Shown here one piece after another: positions 37,026-51,711 of a stretch of DNA of 64,000 bases. The DNA is taken from assembly GCA_009711765.1 (NCBI GenBank), contig VEND01000100.1, forward strand, positions 1,561 through 65,560, read 5' to 3'. Both the position numbers and the translations under genes were made by a program. Source of the stretch: Bacillota bacterium. Lineage in GTDB: Bacteria; Bacillota; Clostridia; Tissierellales; MES13. Position 1 is the first letter of the stretch, and the number at the start of each line of letters is the position of its first letter. The notes beneath the pieces are model-generated. The model ran no database searches. It was not told where the DNA came from and worked only from the letters and a program-made list of their open reading frames with translations.

Positions 37026-37463
37026 TTATACAGCAGCACCTGTTTTTAAACTTTTATCTTTTTTGTAATAGCTCTCAATACAAATTTTAAAATCACTAAA
37101 ACAATCAATAAATTCATTTATAATTTCATATAACTCTTCTTTATCCATATATTTTAAGTAATCAACTTTTATTATAGGTAAATACTTTTCAAATCTTAAT
37201 TTTAAATTAGCCTTTAATATTTTTTTATCATCTAAATAATCAAGTATATTAGCTATATCATTTTCCATTAATCCATTATAATGTCCTACTAGCCTACAAA
37301 TATCCTTTATTTCTTTTATTCCTAGTAATATATATCTTTCTGTTCCACCAAATATTAGAGGTTCTCCAATAAAATCTTCCTTTCGATAGCTCCTTGCCAC
37401 ATAAAGTACCTCTGTGTAATACTCTAAAGTGTCTAGCTTTCCACTTATTTCATTTAGCATAGT
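37026..37463 (-). CDS. hypothetical protein
   Basis: Start moved to ATG 37463 (MLNEISGKLD), which has GGAGGGA upstream. No motif recognised. Confidence 0.5.
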   Translation of the reverse strand, partial: TMLNEISGKLDTLEYYTEVLYVARSYRKEDFIGEPLIFGGTERYILLGIKEIKDICRLVGHYNGLMENDIANILDYLDDKKILKANLKLRFEKYLPIIKVDYLKYMDKEELYEIINEFIDCFSDFKICIESYYKKDKSLKTGAAV

Positions 37464-37604
37464 ATATCCCTCCAATTTTTTTATCCTTTGAACTCTGTAT
37501 TTGTATAATAGCATATACTATGCGATTAATTTGTCATAATGAGTATAAAAAAACTTCTTTATTTGTCGAATTTGATAAAAATAAAATAGGGGTTATTTTT
37601 ACCC

Positions 37605-39584: not shown

Positions 39585-41351
39585 TTAATCAAAAAGGTTT
39601 ATAACCTTTCCTCTTACTTTTTCTTTATTATCTGTTAGTACTTTAAAAACTGCTTTACCCATAGGTTTAATAAGAATAGATTTTATTTTTCTTTTTTTAT
39701 CTTTTCCAGTATCATATAAATCATACTCAACTAAATTTAAATTTTTAAAAATATTAAATAATACAAAGTTAAATATATGAAAATTCTTATTTATAGGGTG
39801 TTCTGTAGAATTAATAAATATTTTTTCTAATGTGTCATAAAAATATTTTTCGTTTTCTTTAAGTTTAGATATTTCTTTTATATATTTAAATTTATTATTT
39901 TCATTTAAAAGTATAAAATTTTTATTAGGTATATATTTATCAAGTTTAAACTTATTAAAGATATAATCTATAAATATAGCTAATTTCTCATAGTTATCAT
40001 ATTCATTAAAATCATTTAACCCATCATCTAATTTAATGATTTTATTATCAATATCTATTATATTATAATAAAGGGAAAACCTATAAAAGATATCTAAATA
40101 AGTTATATCTATTTCCTTAACACCTTTATTAATGATTAAATCATTTAAATTTTTAATATCTTTTTTCTTAAGATTTTTATTAGTTTTTGCAACCTTTGGT
40201 TTTTCATTTTTTATATAATTTAAAAACACATAAAAATCTTTAATAAATCTTTCTTTGACTTCATATCCTTTTAAAATATCTTTTATTGTATTATTATAGT
40301 TAAATACACTATCTATATCCTTACTATTTTTATTTTTAAAATTAATTACATTTTCATAATTCATTTCATAATCTAATCTCTTTATATATTTATCCCTTTG
40401 TTTTGATATTTTAACAATGCTTTTATATGCCTTTTTTTCTAAATGTCCATAATCAAATAAAAATTTACTAAACTTTTTTAAAGATACTATATGGGAGTTT
40501 ATAGCAGTTTTTGATAATAAATAATTAATCTCTATTCCTTCTTTTATAAAAGTATCAACATCTTTCCCTGTCATATCCTCTATAGCTTTATTTTCATTTT
40601 TATAATATATTTCATAAAAACTATATAAGTTTTCCATATGCTTATTAACAGTCTCTTCTTTTAGCTCCTGTTCATTGACTAAATACATTCCAAATATATC
40701 AATTGGTGAAACTTTAGACTCCTTAGAATCCTTTTCTCCATTTATTAATTTTTCAAGATATTCATATATCCCTTTACTTAACATCTTTAATTTTTCTATC
40801 CTAGATAGATCTTTTAACCCTTTTTCTTTATCTATTACTTTTAAACTTTCCTTCATAAATGTAAGTAAAATATCCTTTAACTTTTCATTTAAGTAGTGAC
40901 ATGTACCTACTATTAAATTATATCCTAAAATATTAGCTATCCTTGTTAATATGATATCTCCATTTTTAAACTCACCGTTAAAAACTTTAATATCTAAATA
41001 CTTTTCATTTAAAAAATCATATAGTTTAACATCATTCTTTTGAGTATCAACTACTTGATATATATTTACATAACTATTATTTCTTCCCTCTAAGATCTTT
41101 ATTTCTTTTTTTGTAAGATTATTACTTTCATCGATAAATTGTTCTATTAAACTTTTATTATATATAGTTATATAATCTGATTCTAACCAACTATAAAAGG
41201 TAAAATCTTCATCGGTTTCATCCTCTCCTGTATAGTCAAATTCTAAGTTTTCTAAAACTTCATCATCTAAGAAGTTTACATAATCTTCTATATAATAACC
41301 TAATTTATCCTTAACTTTATAATATTTCTTAATTATTTCTTCTATTTTCAT
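39585..41351 (-). CDS. 588-aa orphan protein, last gene of the SMC operon
   Basis: AGGGTGA RBS lies 9 nt after the VanZ stop. A central segment (VNKHMENLYSFYEIYY...TAINSHIVSLKKFSKFLFDYGHLEKKAY) resembles the SAM-like core-binding domain of tyrosine recombinases. No R-H-R-Y catalytic domain is visible. Confidence 0.5.
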   Translation of the reverse strand: MKIEEIIKKYYKVKDKLGYYIEDYVNFLDDEVLENLEFDYTGEDETDEDFTFYSWLESDYITIYNKSLIEQFIDESNNLTKKEIKILEGRNNSYVNIYQVVDTQKNDVKLYDFLNEKYLDIKVFNGEFKNGDIILTRIANILGYNLIVGTCHYLNEKLKDILLTFMKESLKVIDKEKGLKDLSRIEKLKMLSKGIYEYLEKLINGEKDSKESKVSPIDIFGMYLVNEQELKEETVNKHMENLYSFYEIYYKNENKAIEDMTGKDVDTFIKEGIEINYLLSKTAINSHIVSLKKFSKFLFDYGHLEKKAYKSIVKISKQRDKYIKRLDYEMNYENVINFKNKNSKDIDSVFNYNNTIKDILKGYEVKERFIKDFYVFLNYIKNEKPKVAKTNKNLKKKDIKNLNDLIINKGVKEIDITYLDIFYRFSLYYNIIDIDNKIIKLDDGLNDFNEYDNYEKLAIFIDYIFNKFKLDKYIPNKNFILLNENNKFKYIKEISKLKENEKYFYDTLEKIFINSTEHPINKNFHIFNFVLFNIFKNLNLVEYDLYDTGKDKKRKIKSILIKPMGKAVFKVLTDNKEKVRGKVINLFD

Positions 41352-41360
41352 TTTATCACC

Positions 41361-41807
41361 CTATGTTAAATTTAATTTAAGTAAATCTTTTTTAATTAAT
41401 ATAAAAATTATCAATATCCCAAAGGTTACCCCTAAAGAATCTATAAAAACATCCTTTAATTGAGAGCCCCTTCCTGGTATAAAATACTGGTGAAACTCAT
41501 CTGAAAAAGCATATAATACTCCTATAATAAAAGCTTTAATATAAAACTTATCTATATTTAGAGTATTTAATGATAATGTTAATAAAATACCTAATATAAA
41601 ATATATGCTAAAATGGGCTAACTTTCTTATTAGTAGTTGCAATTTTTTTATTCTTTCATCATCATTTGTTATTTCATTTTCGTCAATAAGATTTAAAAGT
41701 ACTAATATACTTCCTGATTGCTTTTCTGAAACATTAGCTGGTTGATTAGAAAAGAAAAATATTAGTAACATCCAAAATATTGTACTTATCCATAATATCC
41801 TTTTCAA
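41361..41807 (-). CDS. VanZ-family membrane protein
   Basis: 148 aa with 4 TM. Motifs KLAHFSIYFILGILL and DEFHQYFIPGRGSQLKDVFIDSLG. TTG start with AAGGAG upstream, 15 nt after the SMC ATPase stop. Confidence 0.8.
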   Translation of the reverse strand: MKRILWISTIFWMLLIFFFSNQPANVSEKQSGSILVLLNLIDENEITNDDERIKKLQLLIRKLAHFSIYFILGILLTLSLNTLNIDKFYIKAFIIGVLYAFSDEFHQYFIPGRGSQLKDVFIDSLGVTFGILIIFILIKKDLLKLNLT

Positions 41808-41822
41808 TATATTACTCCTTTT

Positions 41823-44800
41823 TTATAAATCCTTTAAGAAATCAATTTGCTCTTGCTTACCTAATCTATCTAAAGCTTTAGGGTCATTATCTTTAAAAAA
41901 TGCATATTTAATTTCTTTTTCTTTATCTATAATAAAACTATGACCATTACTTGCTTCCCTTAATTTACAGCTATATACTACCGGAAAATAATTTCTTATA
42001 TATTTACCATCGGTATGGGCTGTAAGTGCTATTATTTGAAATCCTAACTTCTCAGCTATAAAAAATACTGGATCTAAAACATGGTCACTTGATGCTTTAC
42101 CAAAGGGATTATCCACTATCACTGTTCTATTTGTTTTATTAGATGTGTTAATGTTTTGTCTTTTTTCAGCTAAATAATTTAATATCCCTAGAAAAAGAGT
42201 CATATTTTTACTCCATTTCTCTCCTCCTGACCATTTGTTTGAATATTCCCAAGAAGTAGGCGCACTACTAATTCTACCATCGTTTGTTACTTTTCTACAA
42301 CTTATTTTTATTACTTTATCCTTTAAAACAATCCTTAATAATTGTTTTGACTTAAGCCACTTTTCTATTTCATTTCTGATTTTAACTAGGTTTTCACTAC
42401 CATCATTATTTTTAAATTCACTATTTTCAAGTTGTTTTATCATCCAGTTTATATGATTTCTTAATTCTTCTTTACCTTGTTGTTCTTCCCAATCTGGAAC
42501 GTTAAATCTATATATTTGTTTCCATTTATCTTCAACTTTTATTCGGGTCTTTTTAGGGATTTCCTTCAGTTGTTCTGTAAGGGTTCTTAAAAAAATATAT
42601 AATTGTTCTAAAAAATGTTGGATTTCTTTATCATGTTCCCTCATATCATCCTTAGCTATATTTATTATTCTAGTTATATTTTCTTCCATCTGGTTTTGCC
42701 ACTTTTTAATTTCTTTATAATTATTTTTATAATTGACTCCACCTATGGCCATATTTCTTAATTTAGGATCACTTATATTATCGTTACAAAACTCAATAAA
42801 CTTACTCTTTTGAGTATCTACATTTTTTTTTGTATTCTCTAATCTTTTATATAATAAATTTAATTTTTCTATTATATCTTCAATAAATTTTTTCCTATTA
42901 TAAGGAAAATCCTTTAATATACTATCGTCTAATTTTATAGGTTTTACATCTTCTGTTAAGAATAAATATCTTTCATTTTTTCTTTCTAATATGTTTATAC
43001 AATCATCTATTTCCTTCTTTTCAGTAGTCAATTTTTCATAGATTTTATTTAAATTATCTTCCCTTTTTTTATTTTCTCTAAATTCTTTATTTAAATCATC
43101 ATTTATTTTATATATTGATTCTGTAAATTCAATTAAGCTATCATAAACTTTTAAAAAATTTTCTAAAGAAATTTCATATTTAGCTTTTAAATTTTTAAAG
43201 TTTTCTAAAGCTTCATTTTTTTCATCCTCTAACTTTTTTACCTTAGGTTTTAACTTTTTTATCTCCCTTACTAAATCATTCATCTCCTCTTCTCCATAGG
43301 AGGGGAAAGTTAAATTTTTAGATATCTCAAATCCACACATACTTAATTTCCTATCTAAGTCTTTATTTAAATTTTCCTTAATTTTTATTTTTTCTTTTAA
43401 ATCTTCTCTATAATATTTTATATCCCTTTGTTTATCTTCTAAAGTATCAATTAAACTTTTCCTTTTACTTTTAAGTCCATCTATGGTTTTATCAGTAAAT
43501 AATGTTTTATAACTTTTTACCTCTTTATATAATTCATTTGATTTTAAATAACTTATTTTATCATTAAGAGAAGATATCTTTCCTTTTAAATCTTCTAATA
43601 ATCTTAAATAAGAATCCATATTTCTTTCAACTTTTTTTAAATTTCTATTTTTCTTTTTTAAATCTCTTTCTAAATTATAATTATCTTCTCTATATTTTTT
43701 CAAATCCTTATCTTTGCTTATATAAATTTGACTCCATTCCATTTTTGAATTTAACACTTGTTTTTCATCTTTGTATTTCTCTATATCATTATTAATTCTA
43801 AACATCTCTTTATCTATACTTTTAATTTTTTCTTCCTTACTTTCTATTAAATCATCAATGCTATCAATTTCTTCTTTAAATTTATGTTTATCTTTATTAA
43901 GTTCTTTATATTCACTAAATGGAAATTCAATGAAAAAGTTTCTTACTCCCTTTAACATATCATTATAATAATCTAATTCCTTTTCCTTAGACTTTCTTAT
44001 TTTATTTACCTTTTTATATTCTTCATATAATTCTTCTTTCCAGTTTATAAAATTTTGTTGTAATAAATTATCTCTCCAAAAGTTAGGAAATACAGTTAAA
44101 ATATCTCTAGCTTTACCTTTTTCAATAATATCTAAAGCTTCAGTATCTGATAATATGAAAATAGGATATGTTATTTTATCCTTTCTTTTTAATAATTTAT
44201 CCCTTAGCTTATCTACTTCAGTATCTTTTACTATTACACTCAAAGACCAATATGGATATTTATCAAAATATAAACTTTCTTTTTTATTTAAATTTTTAGA
44301 AACTCTTTGTATATATTTTGTCCCCAACTCTATATATGAAAAATTATTATTAAGACTCAGTATAAGTTTTTCTAATAAAGGTTCTACTGTAAAAAATTTA
44401 TTTTCTGTATAATCATCATATAATCTACTTACCTTTCTTTCATCCTTTAATAGGTCTTCTTTTTGTTTATTTAAATGTTCTATTTTGTTTTCTAATGTAT
44501 TTATTATAGACCCTTCCTTTGTATATAAAGAATCTATAAAATTTAAACTATTTAACTCCTGTAATTTAAGTATTTGTTTATTCTCTTCATTATTTATTAT
44601 ATCTAGTTTATTTTGAGTATCCCTAAGATTATTTGAAAGTTTTTTTAATTCTTTTCTTTTCTTAGGTAAAATATTTTCTAAATCTTCCTTTTCAGTTTTT
44701 AAATTACTAAGCTTAACTTTTAAATCGGCAACCCTTTGTTCTAAAACACCTATTCTTTTTCTCCATGTATTTTGTATGTTTTTAATATCCTCATCTTTAT

Positions 44801-46253
44801 TTTCTAATATCCTTCCCCTTATATCTAATAAATCCTTACTCAATCTATTAATTTCTCCATTTTTTTCATTGATAGACTTATTAAGCTCTTCTTTATTTAG
44901 TAAAATTTCTTTTTTATTATCTAATAAGTCATTATATATACCGTTATAATTATCATATTGATTATTTAATAAATCTAATTTGCTTTTTAAATTTTCTTCC
45001 TCCTTAATAAAATATCCCTTTATCATTTTAGAGTTTTCATTTAATTTATTTCTTAATTCATTAATGTCTTTGTCTTTATTAAGAAGTTCTATTTGATTTT
45101 TTAAATTTTTAATTTCATCTTCTGTTCTTTTTATGTCTAATCTAATTTTAAGGATATCTAATGTTTCGTATCTTTTTTTCTTTTTATCATAATTCTTATA
45201 TATCCTTTGAAAAGCTTCATCTTTATCTTCTAAGATAAGTTTTTCTTCATCCTTTTTAATTTTAAGTTTATATATTTCAAAGGATTTTTCCTTTCTTTTA
45301 AGTTCCTTTATATCATCCTGTAATTTTTCTTTATTTAATTTATTTTCATCTAACATATACTCTAATTTTCTAGATTTATTATTAACTAGTTCAAAAATAC
45401 TTTTAGCATATCTCTTTTTTTCATTATAATCATCATTAATGTTATTATAATCACTATAAACATCAACATAATATTCAATTTGGTCTTTTATTTCACTACA
45501 TTCTTCTATCTTTTCTGTTAATTGTTTATGCTTTTTAAAATGCTCCCTTTGTTTATCAAATGTATCAACAAAATTATCAGTTACTTTATCACTTATAGCC
45601 TCTTCAACAACGGGTATTAACAACTTATCAACAAGCTGTCCTGTAGTTTTACATCCATCAAAAAACTCTTCTACACTTCCCTCAGCACTATTTATAAGAC
45701 TTATCTTTCTCCACTCAGATGGTATTATTTTATAATTTTCTTCTATATATTCATGGAACTCTCTTATTGTTTTAAAAGTAGATGCATTTATATACTCACT
45801 TTTCATATTAGAATAATATTCACTTATTTCTCCCCTACTAGAAGGTCTTAATCCTTTATTCGTCTTCTTTACAAAGGGTAAATTTTCTAAACTATGTTTA
45901 TCATTATGTCCATACTCATACACATATTTATAGGAACTAAGTTTATTATTTTTTACAAATAGTGTAACAGAAGTTACTGCATATCTTCTAGGTCTTTCAT
46001 TTAATATCCATTCTATAGCTATATGACATGGATTTCCCTCTAAAGATAATGTATCTATTATTTTTCTATCAGCTACATCTTGATGGGGAAGTATTGCTTG
46101 AATTGCTGTTTGTATAAAAACTGTTTTCCCTCCACCATTTTCAAGCAATATAGCCCCATTATATCCATCAAATTCAAATATATCATCATTATATCTTTTT
46201 CCACCATTTTCATATATAACATTAGTAAATCGTATCTTAGATATACAAGGCAT
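41823..46253 (-). CDS. SMC/ABC-type ATPase with very long coiled coil (JetC/MksB-like)
   Basis: 1476 aa. N-terminal head has P-loop LLENGGGKTV. The C-terminal head has signature WSGGEK, Walker B TVIVDNPFGKASSDHV and H-loop ALTAHTD. About 1000 aa of K/E/L-rich heptad sequence is interrupted by a central globular segment (about 44050-44420). Confidence 0.8.
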   Translation of the reverse strand: MPCISKIRFTNVIYENGGKRYNDDIFEFDGYNGAILLENGGGKTVFIQTAIQAILPHQDVADRKIIDTLSLEGNPCHIAIEWILNERPRRYAVTSVTLFVKNNKLSSYKYVYEYGHNDKHSLENLPFVKKTNKGLRPSSRGEISEYYSNMKSEYINASTFKTIREFHEYIEENYKIIPSEWRKISLINSAEGSVEEFFDGCKTTGQLVDKLLIPVVEEAISDKVTDNFVDTFDKQREHFKKHKQLTEKIEECSEIKDQIEYYVDVYSDYNNINDDYNEKKRYAKSIFELVNNKSRKLEYMLDENKLNKEKLQDDIKELKRKEKSFEIYKLKIKKDEEKLILEDKDEAFQRIYKNYDKKKKRYETLDILKIRLDIKRTEDEIKNLKNQIELLNKDKDINELRNKLNENSKMIKGYFIKEEENLKSKLDLLNNQYDNYNGIYNDLLDNKKEILLNKEELNKSINEKNGEINRLSKDLLDIRGRILENKDEDIKNIQNTWRKRIGVLEQRVADLKVKLSNLKTEKEDLENILPKKRKELKKLSNNLRDTQNKLDIINNEENKQILKLQELNSLNFIDSLYTKEGSIINTLENKIEHLNKQKEDLLKDERKVSRLYDDYTENKFFTVEPLLEKLILSLNNNFSYIELGTKYIQRVSKNLNKKESLYFDKYPYWSLSVIVKDTEVDKLRDKLLKRKDKITYPIFILSDTEALDIIEKGKARDILTVFPNFWRDNLLQQNFINWKEELYEEYKKVNKIRKSKEKELDYYNDMLKGVRNFFIEFPFSEYKELNKDKHKFKEEIDSIDDLIESKEEKIKSIDKEMFRINNDIEKYKDEKQVLNSKMEWSQIYISKDKDLKKYREDNYNLERDLKKKNRNLKKVERNMDSYLRLLEDLKGKISSLNDKISYLKSNELYKEVKSYKTLFTDKTIDGLKSKRKSLIDTLEDKQRDIKYYREDLKEKIKIKENLNKDLDRKLSMCGFEISKNLTFPSYGEEEMNDLVREIKKLKPKVKKLEDEKNEALENFKNLKAKYEISLENFLKVYDSLIEFTESIYKINDDLNKEFRENKKREDNLNKIYEKLTTEKKEIDDCINILERKNERYLFLTEDVKPIKLDDSILKDFPYNRKKFIEDIIEKLNLLYKRLENTKKNVDTQKSKFIEFCNDNISDPKLRNMAIGGVNYKNNYKEIKKWQNQMEENITRIINIAKDDMREHDKEIQHFLEQLYIFLRTLTEQLKEIPKKTRIKVEDKWKQIYRFNVPDWEEQQGKEELRNHINWMIKQLENSEFKNNDGSENLVKIRNEIEKWLKSKQLLRIVLKDKVIKISCRKVTNDGRISSAPTSWEYSNKWSGGEKWSKNMTLFLGILNYLAEKRQNINTSNKTNRTVIVDNPFGKASSDHVLDPVFFIAEKLGFQIIALTAHTDGKYIRNYFPVVYSCKLREASNGHSFIIDKEKEIKYAFFKDNDPKALDRLGKQEQIDFLKDL

Positions 46254-46988
46254 CTAACTATCCCCTTTCATCTGATCTAAATTATACATAAAATCAAGTA
46301 TTCCTCTGTTATATTCATACTCCATATAATATCTTTTAATAATTACCTTTGCCTTTTCAGTAATTTCTATTTCCTCATTTCCTATATCTAAAATAAGTTC
46401 TTGGGATTTTAAAAACTTTTTTACTTTATCTAAAAAACTTAGCCTACTTATAGTATTACCGCTTTGACTTTTAGCATTTTCCTTTAAATCATCCATAGCA
46501 TCCCATTTTTCAAGTATTGATATCCAGTTATATTCAAAGTCTTTTTCTAAATTTTTAAGTTCTTCTTTATCAAATTCCTTTAATGATTCTATTCTTTCAT
46601 TAATGCTTTTAAGCCACTCTTTTGTAGATATAAAATCCCTTGTAGGATCAGTACTATGATATCCATCATAAAATTCTCCAAAAAGTATTATTATAGTTAC
46701 ATACATCAAATATATATCCATATTTAATGCTTTAGATGGTAAATAATCCTTTTTTATACTTTCATTTGTTATATGAAAGGGACTATTTATATTAACAGGT
46801 ATCATATATATTAAATCTCCTACAACAAAAATAGTTGAATCCACTTCCTTTGAAAATTCATCTACTAATCCCCTTACATTATCATCAGCTAAATACTCCC
46901 TTAATTCTTCCTTTTCTTCATATCCATTTAAAGCTAGCTTTGAATATATTTTAAAAGCTTTCATAACTTGATCATGACTATAATTCAT
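46254..46988 (-). CDS. small SMC-accessory subunit candidate (JetB/MksE, KITE-sized)
   Basis: 244 aa. Assigned from position and size only. Its stop TAG abuts the ATPase ATG, and its start overlaps the upstream gene by 11 nt with a GGAGGT RBS. Confidence 0.5.
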   Translation of the reverse strand: MNYSHDQVMKAFKIYSKLALNGYEEKEELREYLADDNVRGLVDEFSKEVDSTIFVVGDLIYMIPVNINSPFHITNESIKKDYLPSKALNMDIYLMYVTIIILFGEFYDGYHSTDPTRDFISTKEWLKSINERIESLKEFDKEELKNLEKDFEYNWISILEKWDAMDDLKENAKSQSGNTISRLSFLDKVKKFLKSQELILDIGNEEIEITEKAKVIIKRYYMEYEYNRGILDFMYNLDQMKGDS

Positions 46989-48477
46989 TACCCTTTACCT
47001 CCAATGAAAGTCTCATATCTTTAATACTAAATCTATCATTAATATTTAAAGTATTATTTTCTTCTATTAATTTAATCTCTCTATATTCTTCTTTAAAGTT
47101 TTCTATTACTTTTTTAAATAAAACTTCTTCCTTTTCATCATCAAAATATATAGGCGATTTTTGATGAAGTAACATAAAAAAGTCATAAAATACCCTCTTA
47201 TTTAATAATTCCTTTTCATTTTCTTTAACATGTTCTATTATATCCTTTAAGGTTGTCTCATTTTCATATATAACTTTTAATATAATATCAAAAATATATT
47301 TGAAATTATCTTGAATAATTTTTATTTCTTTTTGTTTTTGTTCTTCACTTTTTAAGTCTAAAAATTCATAAGACTTATCTAAATTATCTTTATTTTCTAA
47401 TCTTTGTTGTGAAAATACACTCATAGGTGACCAGGAAACTTGTTTTTCTAAATAAAGAAAGGGTTTTATTAAATTTCTAGTACTATACACAGGAAGCGGG
47501 GATGAAAAAAGTCTTGAAACTATCTCCTTTTTAAAATTAAAGGCTTCTATACCTATATAATATAAAGATTCCTGGGCTGCTTCTATAGTTGTAGTTTTAA
47601 GTTCTATACTCCTTTGAAGTAATTTATTATGAATAGTATGAACATCACTTAACTTATTATCTATCTTAATAATGTAGGTTAAAGCCTCTTGGTCTTTTTT
47701 TAGTTTTAATTCATATCCTAACCTTTTCTTTGTTTCCTTTATAAAAGTTTTAATTTCATTAAATTCTTCATTTTCCCTAGTTAACCTTCTATTTATATCA
47801 CCTATAAGTTCTTTATATCTTTCATATGTTTTTTCAGCCATTATATTTCTTTGTATTTCATGTTTTAGCTTATTTATTCTATCCTCTAAAGTTTTTACAT
47901 CTATTCTCATTTCATCTATTTGTCTTAATGCTATGGAAAACTCTCCCTTTTCTAATTGCTTTCTAAGTAAAAGTTGATTTATAGAAAGTTGAAATTCACT
48001 AAAGTATTCCTTAGTTGCAAAAATAAGTTCTAAACCCTTCTCATCTAATGTATAATACTGGGTATTACTTTTAGTATCTGATTTAGATGCCTTTAATATG
48101 GAATATTGTATTATTTCTTCTTTTCTTGTTTCCCAATTATAGAACTTTCTAAAGTTTCTTTTTCCACTTGGGGGTCTAAATACATCTATTATAGTTCTTG
48201 CTGTTTTTTGAAAACCACTATAATCTAAATTAATTTCATCTTTATTTAATCTATATAAAAATGAAGCTAATTCGTTTATACCTGTTTTTTTATTTCTCAT
48301 AAGCATATTTTCAAAGAAAAACAATAAAGTTAAAAGCCCTAAACTAAAAAAGTCTATATATTTACCACTATTATCCTTTGTTTTTTTATTTTCTAACTTA
48401 TATAAAGGATCAAAAAGGGTAATCCTTTCTATACGCTCTTTATAATTTTTAGTAATATTTTTAATATCTATTTCCAC
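46978..48477 (-). CDS. kleisin-like subunit candidate (JetA/MksF-sized)
   Basis: 499 aa with a central coiled/helical region (about aa 170-300). GTG start with GGAGGA 7 nt upstream, overlapping the upstream gene by 10 nt. Assignment rests on size and synteny only. Confidence 0.5.
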   Translation of the reverse strand: MEIDIKNITKNYKERIERITLFDPLYKLENKKTKDNSGKYIDFFSLGLLTLLFFFENMLMRNKKTGINELASFLYRLNKDEINLDYSGFQKTARTIIDVFRPPSGKRNFRKFYNWETRKEEIIQYSILKASKSDTKSNTQYYTLDEKGLELIFATKEYFSEFQLSINQLLLRKQLEKGEFSIALRQIDEMRIDVKTLEDRINKLKHEIQRNIMAEKTYERYKELIGDINRRLTRENEEFNEIKTFIKETKKRLGYELKLKKDQEALTYIIKIDNKLSDVHTIHNKLLQRSIELKTTTIEAAQESLYYIGIEAFNFKKEIVSRLFSSPLPVYSTRNLIKPFLYLEKQVSWSPMSVFSQQRLENKDNLDKSYEFLDLKSEEQKQKEIKIIQDNFKYIFDIILKVIYENETTLKDIIEHVKENEKELLNKRVFYDFFMLLHQKSPIYFDDEKEEVLFKKVIENFKEEYREIKLIEENNTLNINDRFSIKDMRLSLEVKGNEL

Positions 48478-49475
48478 TTATTATTCCTCCAAATATCTAA
48501 TATCTCTTTTGAATTTAAACTCTCCTGGGGATAATAACCTCCATCATCTAAAAGTTTTTTTATCTTTTTTCTTTCACAGTTTTTAAAATTCTTTAAGAAG
48601 TTTTCTAAGGCTAATTTATTTTTATAATGATTTTCCTTTCCATATGAATATGGCTTTTTAAGTAATTTTTTATAAAAGGGATATGCTAATTTAACTAAGG
48701 ATGATTTATTTAAACTATTCCATATACTTATTCCTTCATAATCTAAATCTCCAAAATAATATATTATATTAGAGTCTTTATCTAAATCTAACTGTTTAGT
48801 TAACATATCTATATTCCCTACTATTTTCCATCCTGAACCATATACTAAGGATGTAAAGTCTGTTTCGTTTAAACAATTTAAAAACAAATGAAAGGTTGCC
48901 TTATTTTCAATAACCATATGTTTATTAATTTCACCATTAATATTTTCTTTATTTATAGCAAGCATTAATGGGTCTTTATATAGACTTATCTTTAATTTAT
49001 TAAATATTTCAACTCTTTGTAAAAACTTCTTTCCACCTTTATAATCTATCCATTTTTCATCTTCTAATATTTCATAGCTTCTTTCTTCAGATGAAGCCTC
49101 CCTTTTAGGAAGACCCTTATCTTTTAGATATTTATCTAATATTTTTATAAATTTTAAATCTTTACTAAGGTCTTTTTTTGTTAATTTTAGATAATTATCT
49201 AATTTTATAGCTGGATGTATTTTTAATTTAAGGGTTTGTATTTCATCGATTAGTTCATCTTTAAATATGGTCTTATTTATTCTATAGGTATTATAAAGAT
49301 TATTTTTCTTTCCGTGGGATTTAACTGGTATTAATATCCTTTTCTTCTCAATATCTTTTATAACATTTGAAAACTCATTATAATCAACATCTCCCTCCAT
49401 TAGTCCTTCTATTTCTAATAGGGGTATTGTTTTTTTCTTCCTTTTTTTTAAATATTTGATTATTTTTTCATGCAT
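48468..49475 (-). CDS. Toprim-domain protein (JetD/MksG, DUF2220-like nuclease candidate)
   Basis: 335 aa. The C-terminal half has HMVIENKATF (Toprim Glu) and IIYYFGDLDYEGISIW (DxD), as in the Topo VI-A/JetD Toprim fold. The N-terminal part is wHTH-like. Confidence 0.65.
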   Translation of the reverse strand: MHEKIIKYLKKRKKKTIPLLEIEGLMEGDVDYNEFSNVIKDIEKKRILIPVKSHGKKNNLYNTYRINKTIFKDELIDEIQTLKLKIHPAIKLDNYLKLTKKDLSKDLKFIKILDKYLKDKGLPKREASSEERSYEILEDEKWIDYKGGKKFLQRVEIFNKLKISLYKDPLMLAINKENINGEINKHMVIENKATFHLFLNCLNETDFTSLVYGSGWKIVGNIDMLTKQLDLDKDSNIIYYFGDLDYEGISIWNSLNKSSLVKLAYPFYKKLLKKPYSYGKENHYKNKLALENFLKNFKNCERKKIKKLLDDGGYYPQESLNSKEILDIWRNNKWK

Positions 49476-49564
49476 ATTATCACCTATTTAAAATATTTAT
49501 AACTACCTATATTTTAACATACATATATATTTTTTTATATTATTTACTTTTATTTTACAAATAA

Positions 49565-49600
49565 AAAGCCACCATAACATTTTAAGTTAAGTGGCCTTTA
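49565..49600 (-). terminator. terminator of the upstream MCP gene, insulating the SMC operon
   Basis: Minus strand has an imperfect GCCAC...GTGGC hairpin followed by TTTTTATTTG. Confidence 0.5.
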
Positions 49601-49611
49601 TTATAATAATT

Positions 49612-51711
49612 CTAAACATTAAATTTATTAGTAGAATCCTTTAAGCTCTCTGCTAAGTTTTCTAATTCCTTAACATATGAATCTATTTCTTCCATAGTAG
49701 CTAATTGTTCTTCACTAGAAGCTGAAACTTGCTGGGTTGTCGCTGAAGTTTCCTCAGCAGCAGCTGTTATATTTTCTATAACATGAACTATTTCATTTTT
49801 CTTATCTATCATATTTTCACTATTAGTTTTAACATTTTTCACTTTATTAGTTAGCTGTTTAATATTATCTGATATATCCTTAAATATATTTTCAGTTTCA
49901 TTTACTGCTTCATTTTGTTCTTTAACTACAGCCTTTGTATTTTCCATTGCAGTTACTGCTTCTTTAGATTGATTTTGTATACCTTCAACTATATTTTTAA
50001 TTTCTTCAACTGATTTTGAAGATTCCTCAGCTAAAGTTCTTATCTCTTCAGCAACCACTGCAAAACCTTTACCTGCTTCTCCACTTCTTGCTGCTTCTAT
50101 TGCTGCATTTAATGCAAGTAAATTAGTTTGTTCTGCAATTTGTCCTATTGTTTCTGTTATCTTACTTATTTCAGTAGATCTTTCATCTACCTTTAATACT
50201 ATATCATTAACTTTCATTGAAGCATTGGTATTTTCCTTAGATTTTTCAGTTAATAACTTAACTGTATCAAGTCCTTTGTCACTAAGGGTATTTGTACTTT
50301 TTGATGATTTGTCCATTTCCACTGTTAATTTATCTATTCTTTCTATATCATCTGCTAAACTATTAACTTTAGCTGCTCCATCTTCAGTATCCTTAGCTTG
50401 GTCTGTGGCATTTTTAGATATTTCTTCTATACTTGATGCAACTTCATTAGTAGCTGTTGTAGTTTGTTCTGTAACATCGCTTAAAGAATCAGAAGAATCT
50501 AATACAGTTTCTGATGCTTTTTTCACATCTAATATTAAATTTTTAATATTACCTATCATATCATTAAAGCTATTAGCTGCATCTCCAAATTCATCATTTC
50601 TATTTACATTAGCCTCTACATTTAAATCTCCATTAGATGCTTTATTAAAGGCTTCTTTTAATTTATTTAATGGCTTTGCTATATATCTACTTAATATAAA
50701 GGATATTACTAAAGCTAATAAAAGTGCTCCTAATAAACTAAATAAAACAAACTTTTTTATAATATTTGTATCCTTAATAAGTTCTTTCTCTTCCATTGTA
50801 GCTGCTATTTTCCAACCTGTTTTCTCATCAGTATTAAATTGTAAAAACTTTTTCTCACCTTTATAAGTATATTCTTCAAATCCCTTTTCTTTGCTTTCAA
50901 CACTACTCCAAAAGCTTTCTTCAGTTATTTTTTTAGTACCTATAAGCTCCTTTGTAGGGTGGGATAATATTTTACCATCTTCACTGGTAATAAATATATA
51001 ACCGGTTCTACCTATTGTTTTTGAAGACATTTCATCTGATAATTCATTTAATAAAACATCTATACCAATAACACCTTTAACCTCACCATTTTCCATAACT
51101 GTTCTAGCAACGGTTACAGTTGTATTTTTAGAAGAATCATCTATGTAAGGATCTGTCCAAACTGTTTTACCCTTATTTTCTAGTGCCTTTTTATACCAAG
51201 GTCTTTCTCTAGGGTCATAGCCATCTGAAAGGTCCTGTTGTGGGTATATATGCATATCCCCCTTAGCTGTACCTATATAAGTATTAGCTATTGTAGATTC
51301 ACTTTCGTTTATATTTTTTAATAATTCCATTGCAGATTCCTTATAATCAGGCTTTTTAATAACCTTTTCTTTAAGTACCTTTTCCCCTTCTTCATTTTCT
51401 ATTTCCTCTGTAGTAGTTACCTCTAATTTTTCCTGTTTTATAAATTTAACTATTTCAGAACTATTACCTAAAACATACGCCTGGGCTTCTAGTCCTTTTA
51501 AATACTCATCTAAACCACTTGTTACTTCCTCCATCATTTGATTAGAAGTTAATTTAAGCTTATCCTCTAATACATTAAAACTTGCCCTATGGGATAAATA
51601 TCCTATACTAGCCACAGGAATTAATATAACTAAAGTTATAATTATAAAAAGCTTAACTCTTATGCTACTAAAAAAATTAGTATTCTTATTATTTTTCTTA
51701 TGTTTCTTCAT
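49612..51711 (-). CDS. methyl-accepting chemotaxis protein (double-Cache-type sensor, HAMP)
   Basis: 699 aa. Signalling hairpin is [39 protein letters not shown]. Confidence 0.95.

What the first reader, a model, noticed from the sequence alone, without database searches (positions are those of the whole stretch)
41823..49475. Wadjet/Mks-like SMC module with permuted gene order (Toprim, kleisin-like, KITE-like, giant SMC): candidate undescribed subtype
Four minus-strand genes are translationally coupled. There is a 10-nt overlap at 48468-48477 (GTG start, GGAGGA RBS), an 11-nt overlap at 46978-46988, and a TAG|ATG abutment at 46253/46254. The products are as follows. (i) A 335-aa protein with Toprim-type acidic motifs HMVIENKATF and YYFGDLDYEGISIW. 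(ii) A 499-aa protein with a helical centre. (iii) A 244-aa protein. (iv) A 1476-aa SMC/ABC ATPase with P-loop ENGGGKT, signature WSGGEK, Walker B VIVDNPFGKASSD and H-loop ALTAHTD. This is the component list of Wadjet (JetABCD) / MksBEFG, which recognise and cleave small circular foreign DNA. Described Wadjet operons run A-B-C-D; this one runs D-A-B-C. The two middle proteins carry no motif I can tie to JetA or JetB, and the ATPase motifs deviate. No integrase or tRNA flanks the locus. It is bounded by an upstream terminator (49565-49600) and sits among chemotaxis and c-di-GMP genes.
Basis: partly seen in the sequence, partly recalled or inferred. Interest (0 to 1): 0.9.

Follow-up and report, generated by a model that had tools for sequence, protein, structure and literature searches.

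The report
Ordinary type III Wadjet anti-plasmid operon
This is a standard, already catalogued type III Wadjet (JetD-JetA-JetB-JetC) anti-plasmid defence operon, and its apparently "permuted" gene order is the normal order for that type, so it is not a new subtype.

Summary
Four intact, overlapping minus-strand genes (335, 499, 244 and 1476 aa) sit at the stated coordinates, with every quoted motif present. The "undescribed subtype" interpretation fails. PADLOC profiles match all four proteins end to end as JetD3, JetA3, JetB3 and JetC3 (E 8e-92, 4e-205, 1e-118 and 0), which is Wadjet type III. The order D-A-B-C, with the same gene sizes, recurs in all eight related loci examined, down to 27-31% JetD identity. 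Structure prediction confirms the fold claims. JetD3 best matches the MksG nuclease and topoisomerase VI-A (Toprim). JetB3 (Pfam DUF6063) matches only MukE and JetB (KITE). The JetA3 fold was not tested.

Two side observations have some value. First, type III JetC has Asn where SMC/ABC ATPases have the Walker B catalytic Glu (hhhhD-N-PFG, 145 of 146 aligned cluster representatives), a family-wide trait I did not find reported. Second, against a sister genome the jetABC cassette shows 3-5 times the synonymous divergence of jetD and the flanks, with sharp boundaries, which implies allelic replacement of the sensor module.

Function (sensing and cleaving small circular DNA) is inferred from types I and II. 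Nothing was tested for this subclade.

The parts
48468..49475 (-). jetD (type III), 335 aa. The model shows an N-terminal winged-helix/arm (CAP-like) region followed by a C-terminal Toprim nuclease domain. The predicted catalytic residues are E190 (48906-48908), D243 (48747-48749) and D245 (48741-48743).
   Evidence: PADLOC JetD3 E 8.3e-92, covering 3-332 of 335. Pfam JetD_C PF09983, 30.5 bits. E190, D243 and D245 are invariant in a 50-sequence alignment. The AF2 model has pLDDT 91. The best Foldseek PDB hits are 8b7f_A, the C. glutamicum nuclease (E 4e-6; I identify this entry as MksG), and then topoisomerase VI-A chains.
46978..48477 (-). jetA (type III), 499 aa, GTG start, overlapping jetD by 10 nt. 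It is the presumed kleisin subunit.
   Evidence: PADLOC JetA3 E 4.3e-205, covering 2-495 of 499. No Pfam, NCBIfam or PDB sequence match, even with a profile. A protein of about 500-550 aa occupies this position in all related loci. The fold was not tested.
46254..46988 (-). jetB (type III), 244 aa, overlapping jetA by 11 nt. It is the KITE subunit (tandem winged-helix), Pfam DUF6063.
   Evidence: PADLOC JetB3 E 1e-118. Pfam DUF6063 E 2.8e-94. The AF2 model has pLDDT 74 and shows two H-H-H-beta-hairpin units. The top 20 Foldseek PDB hits are all MukE or JetB chains (3euh_C 2.8e-5, 8as8_C 3.3e-5, 8dk1_F 2.5e-4).
41823..46253 (-). jetC (type III), 1476 aa, an SMC-like ABC ATPase with long coiled-coil arms. 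Walker A is L37-ENGGGKT44 (46122-46145). The signature is WSGGEK at 1341. Walker B plus D-loop is T1377-VIVD-N1382-PFGKASSD1390 (42084-42125). The H-loop is LTAH1413.
   Evidence: PADLOC JetC3 E 0, 1638 bits, covering 1-1473 against 1-1471 of 1472. NCBIfam SMC_prok_B/A give coiled-coil matches. hhalign against ABC ATPase domains gives E 5.2e-5 for the Walker A half and E 4.6e-4 for the half running from signature through Walker B to H-loop. There is a weak Pfam SbcC_Walker_B hit at residues 1337-1390.
49476..49564 (-). AT-rich intergenic leader between the MCP terminator and the jetD start. It presumably holds the operon promoter, which I did not identify.
   Evidence: Sequence read. The consensus promoter scan found fewer sites than the shuffles (75 against a mean of 83.9), so it is not informative in this 25% GC DNA. 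No Rfam family matches.
49565..49600 (-). Intrinsic-terminator-like hairpin plus U-run that ends the upstream MCP gene (49612-51711) and insulates the jet operon.
   Evidence: RNA fold -17 kcal/mol, z = -4.05 against shuffles. The simple terminator scan missed it.

Best explanation
This locus is a chromosomal type III Wadjet (JetD-JetA-JetB-JetC) anti-plasmid defence operon from an uncultured low-GC Bacillota bacterium. Shown here: there are four intact genes with overlapping or abutting reading frames under purifying selection. JetD3 has a Toprim/topoisomerase VI-A-like fold with the invariant acidic triad E190, D243 and D245. JetB3 has the MukE/JetB KITE fold. JetC3 is an SMC-like ABC ATPase with Walker A, signature, Walker B, D-loop and H-loop in the canonical order, separated by about 1050 residues of coiled coil and hinge. 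Inferred from biochemistry on types I and II: JetA3 (kleisin) bridges the JetC3 heads and binds JetB3, and JetABC probably dimerises. The complex loads on DNA and reels it in by loop extrusion. On a small circular molecule the two motor units meet and stall, and the bent DNA segment is then cut by the recruited JetD3 dimer. Linear DNA and the large chromosome escape. The D-first gene order and the tight coupling are the normal architecture of type III.
For: Full-length PADLOC type III hits for all four proteins. The same order and gene sizes in 8 of 8 related loci across Clostridia and Bacilli and on two megaplasmids. JetD3 structure matches the 8b7f nuclease and topo VI-A, with conserved E and DxD. 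JetB3 structure matches MukE/JetB only. JetC3 head halves align to ABC ATPase motifs. dN/dS is 0.10-0.28 for all four genes. [quoted passage not shown]
Against: There are no functional data for this locus or its subclade. I could not retrieve the tested B. thuringiensis system to compare it. The JetA3 kleisin fold was not tested. JetC3 lacks the canonical Walker B catalytic Glu, with Asn1382 in its place family-wide. That sits awkwardly with a fast ATP-hydrolysing loop-extrusion motor. None of the four proteins has a sequence-detectable relative in the PDB, so the mechanistic transfer from type I rests on fold and architecture only.
Confidence: 0.9

Rival explanations
1. One reading: this is a previously undescribed Wadjet subtype, defined by a permuted D-A-B-C gene order and unrecognisable middle subunits.
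For: Pfam and NCBIfam give no family for the 499-aa and 1476-aa proteins. No sequence similarity to type I or II components is detectable beyond the Toprim core.
Against: The PADLOC type III models cover all four proteins end to end with E values from 8e-92 to 0. D-A-B-C is the order in every related locus examined. NCBI already names homologues 'Wadjet anti-phage system protein JetD domain-containing protein'.
Confidence: 0.03
2. The components are the same but the ATPase logic differs. Because JetC3 has Asn at the Walker B catalytic-base position, type III Wadjet may hydrolyse ATP very slowly or use a different catalytic residue. It would then act more as an ATP-bound clamp or sensor, as proposed for Lamassu LmuB, than as a processive loop extruder.
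For: hhhhD-N-PFG occurs in 145 of 146 aligned representatives of 50%-identity clusters and in all 8 fetched loci. The register is supported by hhalign to ABC ATPases (D-N-P aligned to D-E-P, signature and H-loop aligned, E 4.6e-4). The H-loop His is Leu in 12 of 150 representatives. Lack of the catalytic Glu is the hallmark of degenerate ABC sites (PMC7544095). LmuB naturally carries Glu to Gln (PMC10586767).
Against: A B. thuringiensis operon, the type III representative in the literature, restricts plasmids like types I and II (10.1101/2022.10.04.510915), although I could not check its Walker B sequence. Walker A Lys, the signature and Walker B Asp are strictly conserved, which argues for a working nucleotide cycle. 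Other conserved carboxylates (E81, E180, E191, E217) might substitute. No structure of the head could be computed here.
Confidence: 0.25
3. The operon is a housekeeping MksBEF/MukBEF-like condensin for chromosome organisation and not a defence system.
For: JetB3 is structurally equally close to MukE and JetB. The locus is chromosomal, sits among chemotaxis and c-di-GMP genes, and has no mobile-element hallmarks.
Against: A JetD Toprim nuclease gene with intact catalytic residues is coupled to the operon, and this is the feature that separates Wadjet from Muk/Mks (PMC9252829). The genomic neighbourhoods of homologues are unrelated to each other. Copies occur on megaplasmids. A decayed copy exists in C. 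cellulovorans, which would not be expected for an essential condensin.
Confidence: 0.04
4. The operon is an inactive relic.
For: The Walker B Glu is absent. A related C. cellulovorans copy has a fragmented jetC.
Against: All four ORFs are intact with their RBSs. dN/dS is 0.10-0.28. The catalytic triad and P-loop are conserved. The Asn is a conserved family trait and not a lesion specific to this locus.
Confidence: 0.04

Closest known systems
Wadjet type III (PADLOC JetA3/JetB3/JetC3/JetD3; defined by Doron et al. 2018, with a Bacillus thuringiensis representative)
   Same: All four proteins match full length. The gene order is D-A-B-C. The sizes are about 340, 500, 245 and 1480 aa. JetB is DUF6063. 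The JetC arms are long, consistent with the remark that Wadjet-III mostly has longer coiled coils and lacks a hinge channel (PMC12647877).
   Different: I found nothing that sets it apart from the family. It belongs to one subclade (best models PDLC00592, 00566, 00575 and 00582). The experimentally tested B. thuringiensis system could not be retrieved for comparison.
Wadjet type I (E. coli GF4-3 JetABCD, P. aeruginosa PA14 JetABCD, C. glutamicum MksBEFG)
   Same: Same four-subunit composition. The JetD3 model matches the solved 8b7f nuclease (I identify it as MksG) and JetB3 matches the solved JetB chains 8as8_C and 8dk1_F. The Toprim Glu and DxD are conserved.
   Different: The gene order is A-B-C-D in type I. 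There is no HMM-detectable similarity for A, B or C. The type I JetC Walker B carries the canonical Glu (E. coli JetC E1022Q is ATPase-dead; 10.1101/2022.10.04.510915), whereas type III has Asn.
Wadjet type II (Neobacillus vireti nvJET-II; the TIGR02677-02680 assignment is my recollection)
   Same: An SMC-based plasmid sensor plus a Toprim nuclease, with long coiled coils.
   Different: Type II has a single tandem-KITE subunit with four winged-helix domains and needs Mn2+ (10.1101/2025.03.10.642339). Here JetB3 has two winged-helix units. There is only a weak partial hit to TIGR02679/DUF2399 in the Toprim core.
MukBEF / MksBEF condensins
   Same: The kleisin, KITE and SMC architecture. JetB3's best structural match is MukE.
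   Different: They have no nuclease subunit and serve chromosome organisation. PADLOC reports such three-gene sets separately, as 'Wadjet other' (PMC9252829).
Lamassu LmuB (a Rad50/SMC-like defence ATPase)
   Same: A natural substitution of the Walker B catalytic Glu (Glu to Gln in LmuB; PMC10586767) parallels Glu to Asn in JetC3.
   Different: LmuB is a different family of about 650 aa with short coiled coils, different partners (LmuA, LmuC), no kleisin or KITE, and an abortive-infection outcome.

Membership tests
Wadjet type III | All four components JetA, JetB, JetC and JetD are co-localised and each matches the type III profile (PADLOC requires the full JetABCD set). | tested here: met
   JetD3 8.3e-92, JetA3 4.3e-205, JetB3 1e-118, JetC3 E 0 (1638 bits). 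All are near full length, and the genes are contiguous and overlapping.
Wadjet type III | The operon organisation is characteristic of the type (jetD first, then A, B, C). | tested here: met
   8 of 8 related loci share the order. The literature says the types were classified by sequence similarity and operon organisation (PMC10586767). That the published type III figure shows D first is my recollection, not something read here.
Wadjet (any type) | JetD has a Toprim domain with a conserved Glu and a DxD metal-binding motif. | tested here: met
   E190, D243 and D245 are invariant in 50 sequences. The model has pLDDT 91. Foldseek gives 8b7f (C. glutamicum nuclease) at E 4e-6 and topo VI-A (1d3y, 2q2e, 9o7o).
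Wadjet (any type) | JetB is a KITE subunit (tandem winged-helix, MukE-like). | tested here: met
   The model has pLDDT 74. The top 20 PDB matches are exclusively MukE or JetB, with E from 2.8e-5 to 1.6e-2 and probability 0.98-1.00. TM-scores are modest (0.32-0.40), so agreement is at the level of domains and topology.
Wadjet (any type) | JetA is a kleisin (N- and C-terminal winged-helix domains that bind the SMC neck and cap, with a middle region that binds KITE). | not tested
   Support is only the family-level JetA3 profile match and the conserved position in the operon.
Wadjet (any type) | JetC is an SMC-type ABC ATPase with split head halves, a long coiled coil, and Walker A, signature, Walker B and H-loop motifs. 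| tested here: met
   Motif order and hhalign to ABC ATPases (E 5.2e-5 and 4.6e-4). Coiled-coil matches to SMC_prok models.
Canonical SMC/ABC ATPase catalytic site | A Walker B hhhhD-E with the catalytic glutamate. | tested here: not met
   Asn1382 occupies the Glu position. The same is true in 145 of 146 aligned representatives and in all fetched loci. This is a property of type III as a family, so it does not count against type III membership.
Wadjet (any type) | Restriction of small circular plasmids that depends on all four subunits. | not testable with these tools
   This is an experimental question. It has been shown for Bacillus type I, II and III operons in B. subtilis (10.1101/2022.10.04.510915), but not for this subclade.
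Wadjet type I / type II | A, B and C components match DUF3375/DUF4194 (type I) or DUF2397/DUF2398/TIGR02680 (type II). These family assignments are from my recollection. | tested here: not met
   There are no Pfam or NCBIfam hits to these families. PADLOC JetD1 and JetD2 hit only the Toprim core weakly (4e-11 to 5e-4), and JetC2 hits only the coiled coil (1.5e-4).

The most novel reading that the evidence does not exclude
Type III Wadjet as a family, including this locus, has lost the Walker B catalytic glutamate of its SMC subunit (invariant D-N-P-F-G). It may therefore run a different ATPase cycle from types I and II, either very slow hydrolysis or a relocated catalytic residue. That would bear on whether plasmid sizing by complete loop extrusion really applies to all Wadjet types. 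In addition, the JetABC sensor cassette is exchanged as a unit, independently of JetD, between closely related genomes, which suggests that arms-race pressure falls on the sensor and not on the nuclease.
Probability: 0.3. Interest if true: 0.55.

Novelty: already known. Interest (0 to 1): 0.15.

Why it matters
As submitted, the finding matters little. It is one more instance of a defence system that PADLOC-type tools would call automatically, and the gene order that prompted the flag is the family norm. Its practical value is annotation. NCBI labels these proteins 'DUF2399 domain-containing protein' and, wrongly, 'non-ribosomal peptide synthetase module'. The work also shows structurally that Pfam DUF6063 is the KITE subunit of type III Wadjet. 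The broader point worth passing on concerns type III itself, which the literature calls largely uncharacterised. Its SMC subunit universally lacks the canonical catalytic glutamate. For a complex thought to measure DNA size by ATP-driven loop extrusion, that is a concrete and cheaply testable mechanistic question.

Tried and rejected
1. PDB sequence searches, with single sequences and with profiles, for JetD3, JetA3, JetB3, JetC3 and the JetC3 C-terminal head found nothing meaningful. Fold comparison was needed instead.

3. I tried to link the locus to experimentally tested systems. The C. cellulovorans Wadjet deleted in PMC12287153 (Clocel_0831-0834, compared there to the B. cereus Q1 proteins) is a different locus from that species' type III copy. 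The paper's jetD sgRNA target is absent from L008, and that copy has a fragmented jetC. B. thuringiensis JetD3 was not among the 120 best relatives of a Bacillus JetD3.

4. The full text of Doron et al. 2018 is not held, so the published type III order could not be quoted verbatim.

5. The genome-contig scan with JetD3 returned only one locus, a close relative. The gene-order survey used the look-up of encoding contigs and the plasmid collection instead.

6. Mobile-element hypothesis: no tRNA, no flanking direct or inverted repeats above AT-rich background, only a modest GC dip, and the same synteny in the sister genome. I rejected recent island insertion as something that can be demonstrated here.

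7. The consensus promoter scan is uninformative in 25% GC DNA, with fewer hits than the shuffles. There are no Rfam families in 38-52 kb.

8. PADLOC and PHROGs scans of the downstream vanZ and the 588-aa gene found no defence or phage family.
Full report
OBSERVATION. The four minus-strand ORFs exist exactly as described: 48468-49475 (335 aa, ATG), 46978-48477 (499 aa, GTG), 46254-46988 (244 aa, ATG) and 41823-46253 (1476 aa, ATG). Reading the junctions confirms a 10-nt overlap preceded by GGAGGA, an 11-nt overlap preceded by GGAGG, and a TAG|ATG abutment preceded by a GGGG-type RBS. Every quoted peptide motif is at the stated protein. The window is about 25% GC, and the operon is slightly lower at 0.22-0.25. 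The hairpin at about 49565-49600 folds at -17 kcal/mol (z = -4.05). It follows the stop codon of the upstream MCP gene directly, so it is that gene's terminator. The neighbours are two dCache-HAMP-MCP receptors and a PAS-GGDEF-EAL protein. There is no tRNA, no Rfam family and no flanking repeats above the AT-rich background.

WHAT IT IS. PADLOC profiles assign all four proteins, essentially end to end, to Wadjet type III:
- JetD3: E 8.3e-92, residues 3-332.
- JetA3: E 4.3e-205, residues 2-495.
- JetB3: E 1e-118, residues 1-242.
- JetC3: E 0, 1638 bits, residues 1-1473 against model positions 1-1471 of 1472.
Types I and II score only weakly, on the Toprim core or the coiled coil. Pfam sees JetD_C (PF09983) in the first protein and DUF6063 in the third, and nothing in the 499-aa and 1476-aa proteins. 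NCBIfam sees only coiled-coil similarity to SMC. This explains why a reader working from the sequence alone could not tie the middle proteins to JetA and JetB. The identical JetD and JetB sequences are already in NCBI, from a Firmicutes MAG contig of 85.7 kb. They are named 'DUF2399 domain-containing protein' and 'non-ribosomal peptide synthetase module'. Many homologues are already named 'Wadjet anti-phage system protein JetD domain-containing protein'.

GENE ORDER. I examined eight related loci:
- A sister MAG with 94-95% JetD identity (L001).
- Clostridium drakei, Bacillus weihaiensis, Proteinivorax tanatarense and a Syntrophomonadaceae MAG, with 44-51% JetD identity (L002-L005).
- C. cellulovorans (L008).
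- Two distant plasmid-borne copies: C. perfringens pJFP838A (404 kb, 31%) and a Pontibacillus plasmid (898 kb, 27%) (L006, L007).
Every one runs JetD (about 340 aa), then a protein of about 500-550 aa, then DUF6063 (about 245 aa), then a protein of about 1450-1700 aa, mostly with small overlaps. D-A-B-C is therefore the conserved architecture of this family and not a permutation. [quoted passage not shown] The operon diagrams are figures, and Doron et al. 2018 is not held. That the published type III diagram starts with jetD is therefore my recollection, supported by the survey above.

JetD3, modelled from a 50-sequence alignment (pLDDT 91), best matches 8b7f_A, the C. glutamicum nuclease (which I identify as MksG), at E 4e-6. 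Topoisomerase VI-A subunits follow (9o7o, 1d3y, 2q2e). TM-scores are low (0.31-0.36), as expected for a flexible two-domain protein. Glu190 (in VIENK) and Asp243 and Asp245 (in GDLD) are invariant. They correspond to the Glu plus DxD of JetD and topo VI-A described by Liu et al. (10.1101/2022.10.04.510915). JetB3, modelled from 41 sequences (pLDDT 74), shows two helix-helix-helix-beta-hairpin units. Its top 20 PDB matches are exclusively MukE and the JetB chains of E. coli and P. aeruginosa JetABC (E from 2.8e-5 to 1.6e-2). DUF6063 is therefore a KITE subunit. Its kleisin assignment rests on the JetA3 profile and its conserved position.

JetC3 ATPASE. Profiles of the two head halves, built from 101 and 131 representatives, align to canonical ABC ATPase domains taken from the fetched loci. 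The Walker A half gives E 5.2e-5 (LLENGGGKT against G.nG.GKST). The half from signature to H-loop gives E 4.6e-4 over 89 columns (WSGGE = LSGGE, VIlD-N-P = lllD-E-P, His = His). Asn1382 thus occupies the position of the Walker B catalytic glutamate. This is not peculiar to the locus. Among 150 representatives of 50%-identity clusters, 145 of the 146 that align there have D-N, nearly always as DNPFG, and so do all fetched loci, including the two distant plasmid copies. Leu replaces the first Gly of Walker A in 99 of 101 full-length representatives, and 12 of 150 have Leu at the H-loop His. Type I JetC has the canonical Glu, since E1022Q is ATPase-dead (10.1101/2022.10.04.510915). Loss of this Glu is the hallmark of degenerate ABC sites (PMC7544095). 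The SMC-like Lamassu protein LmuB naturally carries Glu to Gln (PMC10586767). I found no paper noting this for Wadjet type III, although the library searched is incomplete.

MECHANISM. Shown: component identities, folds of two subunits, catalytic motifs, coupled gene architecture and purifying selection (dN/dS 0.10-0.28). Inferred from types I and II: JetABC loads on DNA and extrudes loops. On a small circle the two motor units collide, and the trapped, bent DNA is cut by the JetD dimer. Linear and very large DNA escape (10.1101/2022.10.04.510915; 10.1101/2025.03.10.642339, which extends the principle to type III only 'by extension'). The occurrence of type III operons on plasmids of 404 kb and 898 kb is compatible with a size cut-off of roughly 50-100 kb. 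The missing catalytic Glu is the main reason for caution in transferring the motor mechanism unchanged.

OTHER THINGS SEEN. Compared with the sister genome L001, synonymous divergence is 0.14-0.25 for GGDEF-EAL, MCP, jetD, vanZ, orf588 and orf142. It is 0.63, 0.75 and 0.74 for jetA, jetB and jetC. In 60-codon windows the step is abrupt at the jetD/jetA junction (0.06 to 0.62) and at the jetC 3' end into vanZ (0.74 to 0.30 and 0.18). The simplest explanation is replacement of the whole jetABC cassette by a diverged allele through homologous recombination, with jetD left in place. The JetC heads remain 87-96% identical and the arms 43-68% identical. This rests on two genomes only. Downstream, vanZ starts 15 nt after jetC and a 588-aa gene follows 9 nt later, with no terminator detected, so they may be co-transcribed. 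A VanZ gene also abuts the C. cellulovorans type III locus, but the other loci have unrelated neighbours.

VERDICT. 'Wadjet' is right, but 'undescribed subtype with permuted order' is wrong, because this is an ordinary type III Wadjet operon. Interest in the finding as posed is low. The family-wide Asn at the catalytic position of JetC3 and the modular jetABC exchange are the only items worth forwarding.

Noticed in passing
window 42084-42125 (JetC residues 1377-1390; Asn1382 = 42108-42110); Walker A at 46122-46145: The JetC3 Walker B reads TVIVD-N-PFGKASSD, with Asn in place of the catalytic Glu of SMC/ABC ATPases. This is conserved in 145 of 146 aligned representatives of the type III family and in both distant plasmid copies. 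Walker A has Leu in place of the first Gly (LENGGGKT). The H-loop His is Leu in 12 of 150 representatives. I did not find this reported in the searchable literature.
   Followed up: partly
window 41823-48477 compared with L001 10830-17490: The jetABC cassette has dS of 0.63-0.75 against the sister genome, while jetD and all flanking genes have 0.14-0.25. The steps fall sharply at the jetD/jetA junction and at the jetC 3' end. This suggests allelic replacement of the sensor module by recombination, with the nuclease gene retained. No closer donor allele was found.
   Followed up: partly
window 39585-41351 (-) and 41361-41807 (-): A VanZ-family gene starts 15 nt after jetC (TTG start, AAGGAG RBS). 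A 588-aa gene follows 9 nt later. It has an integrase-type SAM-like core-binding domain (residues 218-299) but no detectable catalytic domain and no PADLOC or PHROGs match. The same pair follows jetC in L001. They may be co-transcribed with the jet operon.
   Followed up: partly
L008 6460-11934 (C. cellulovorans 743B chromosome, about 4.41 Mb): C. cellulovorans carries a type III Wadjet locus whose jetC is reduced to fragments of 262 and 418 aa, with a VanZ gene immediately upstream of jetD. It is distinct from the Wadjet operon (Clocel_0831-0834) whose deletion raised conjugation about 100,000-fold. That paper's jetD sgRNA target is absent from this locus.
   Followed up: yes
window 46254-46988 (JetB3) and its homologues P0271, P0272, P0277, P0298 and others: NCBI and UniRef name many JetB3/DUF6063 proteins, including this one, 'non-ribosomal peptide synthetase module'. 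The predicted structure matches MukE/JetB KITE proteins, so this name looks like a propagated misannotation.
   Followed up: yes
L006 8884-16638 (C. perfringens pJFP838A, 404 kb); L007 8908-17341 (Pontibacillus plasmid, 898 kb): Distant type III Wadjet operons are carried on very large plasmids, well above the roughly 50-100 kb size limit reported for Wadjet targets. The Pontibacillus JetC is unusually long at 1705 aa.
   Followed up: no
L003 12249-16676 (Bacillus weihaiensis): jetC is called as a 51-aa ORF plus a 1376-aa ORF that lacks the N-terminal Walker A region. This may be a frameshift or pseudogene at the 5' end, or an assembly error.
   Followed up: no
literature compared with window 48906-48908 (JetD E190): Liu et al. 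(10.1101/2022.10.04.510915) number the Toprim Glu of B. thuringiensis JetD as E298. The equivalent residue here is E190, and PADLOC's JetD3 models are only about 346 residues long. The tested B. thuringiensis protein may have a longer N-terminus or belong to another subclade. I could not retrieve it to check.
   Followed up: partly
window 37026-37514 (-): A 162-aa ORF has a sub-threshold HepT-like ribonuclease match (E 6.7e-4, 19.8 bits against a cut-off of 23.5). It may be a toxin-antitoxin remnant about 4 kb downstream of the jet operon.
   Followed up: no
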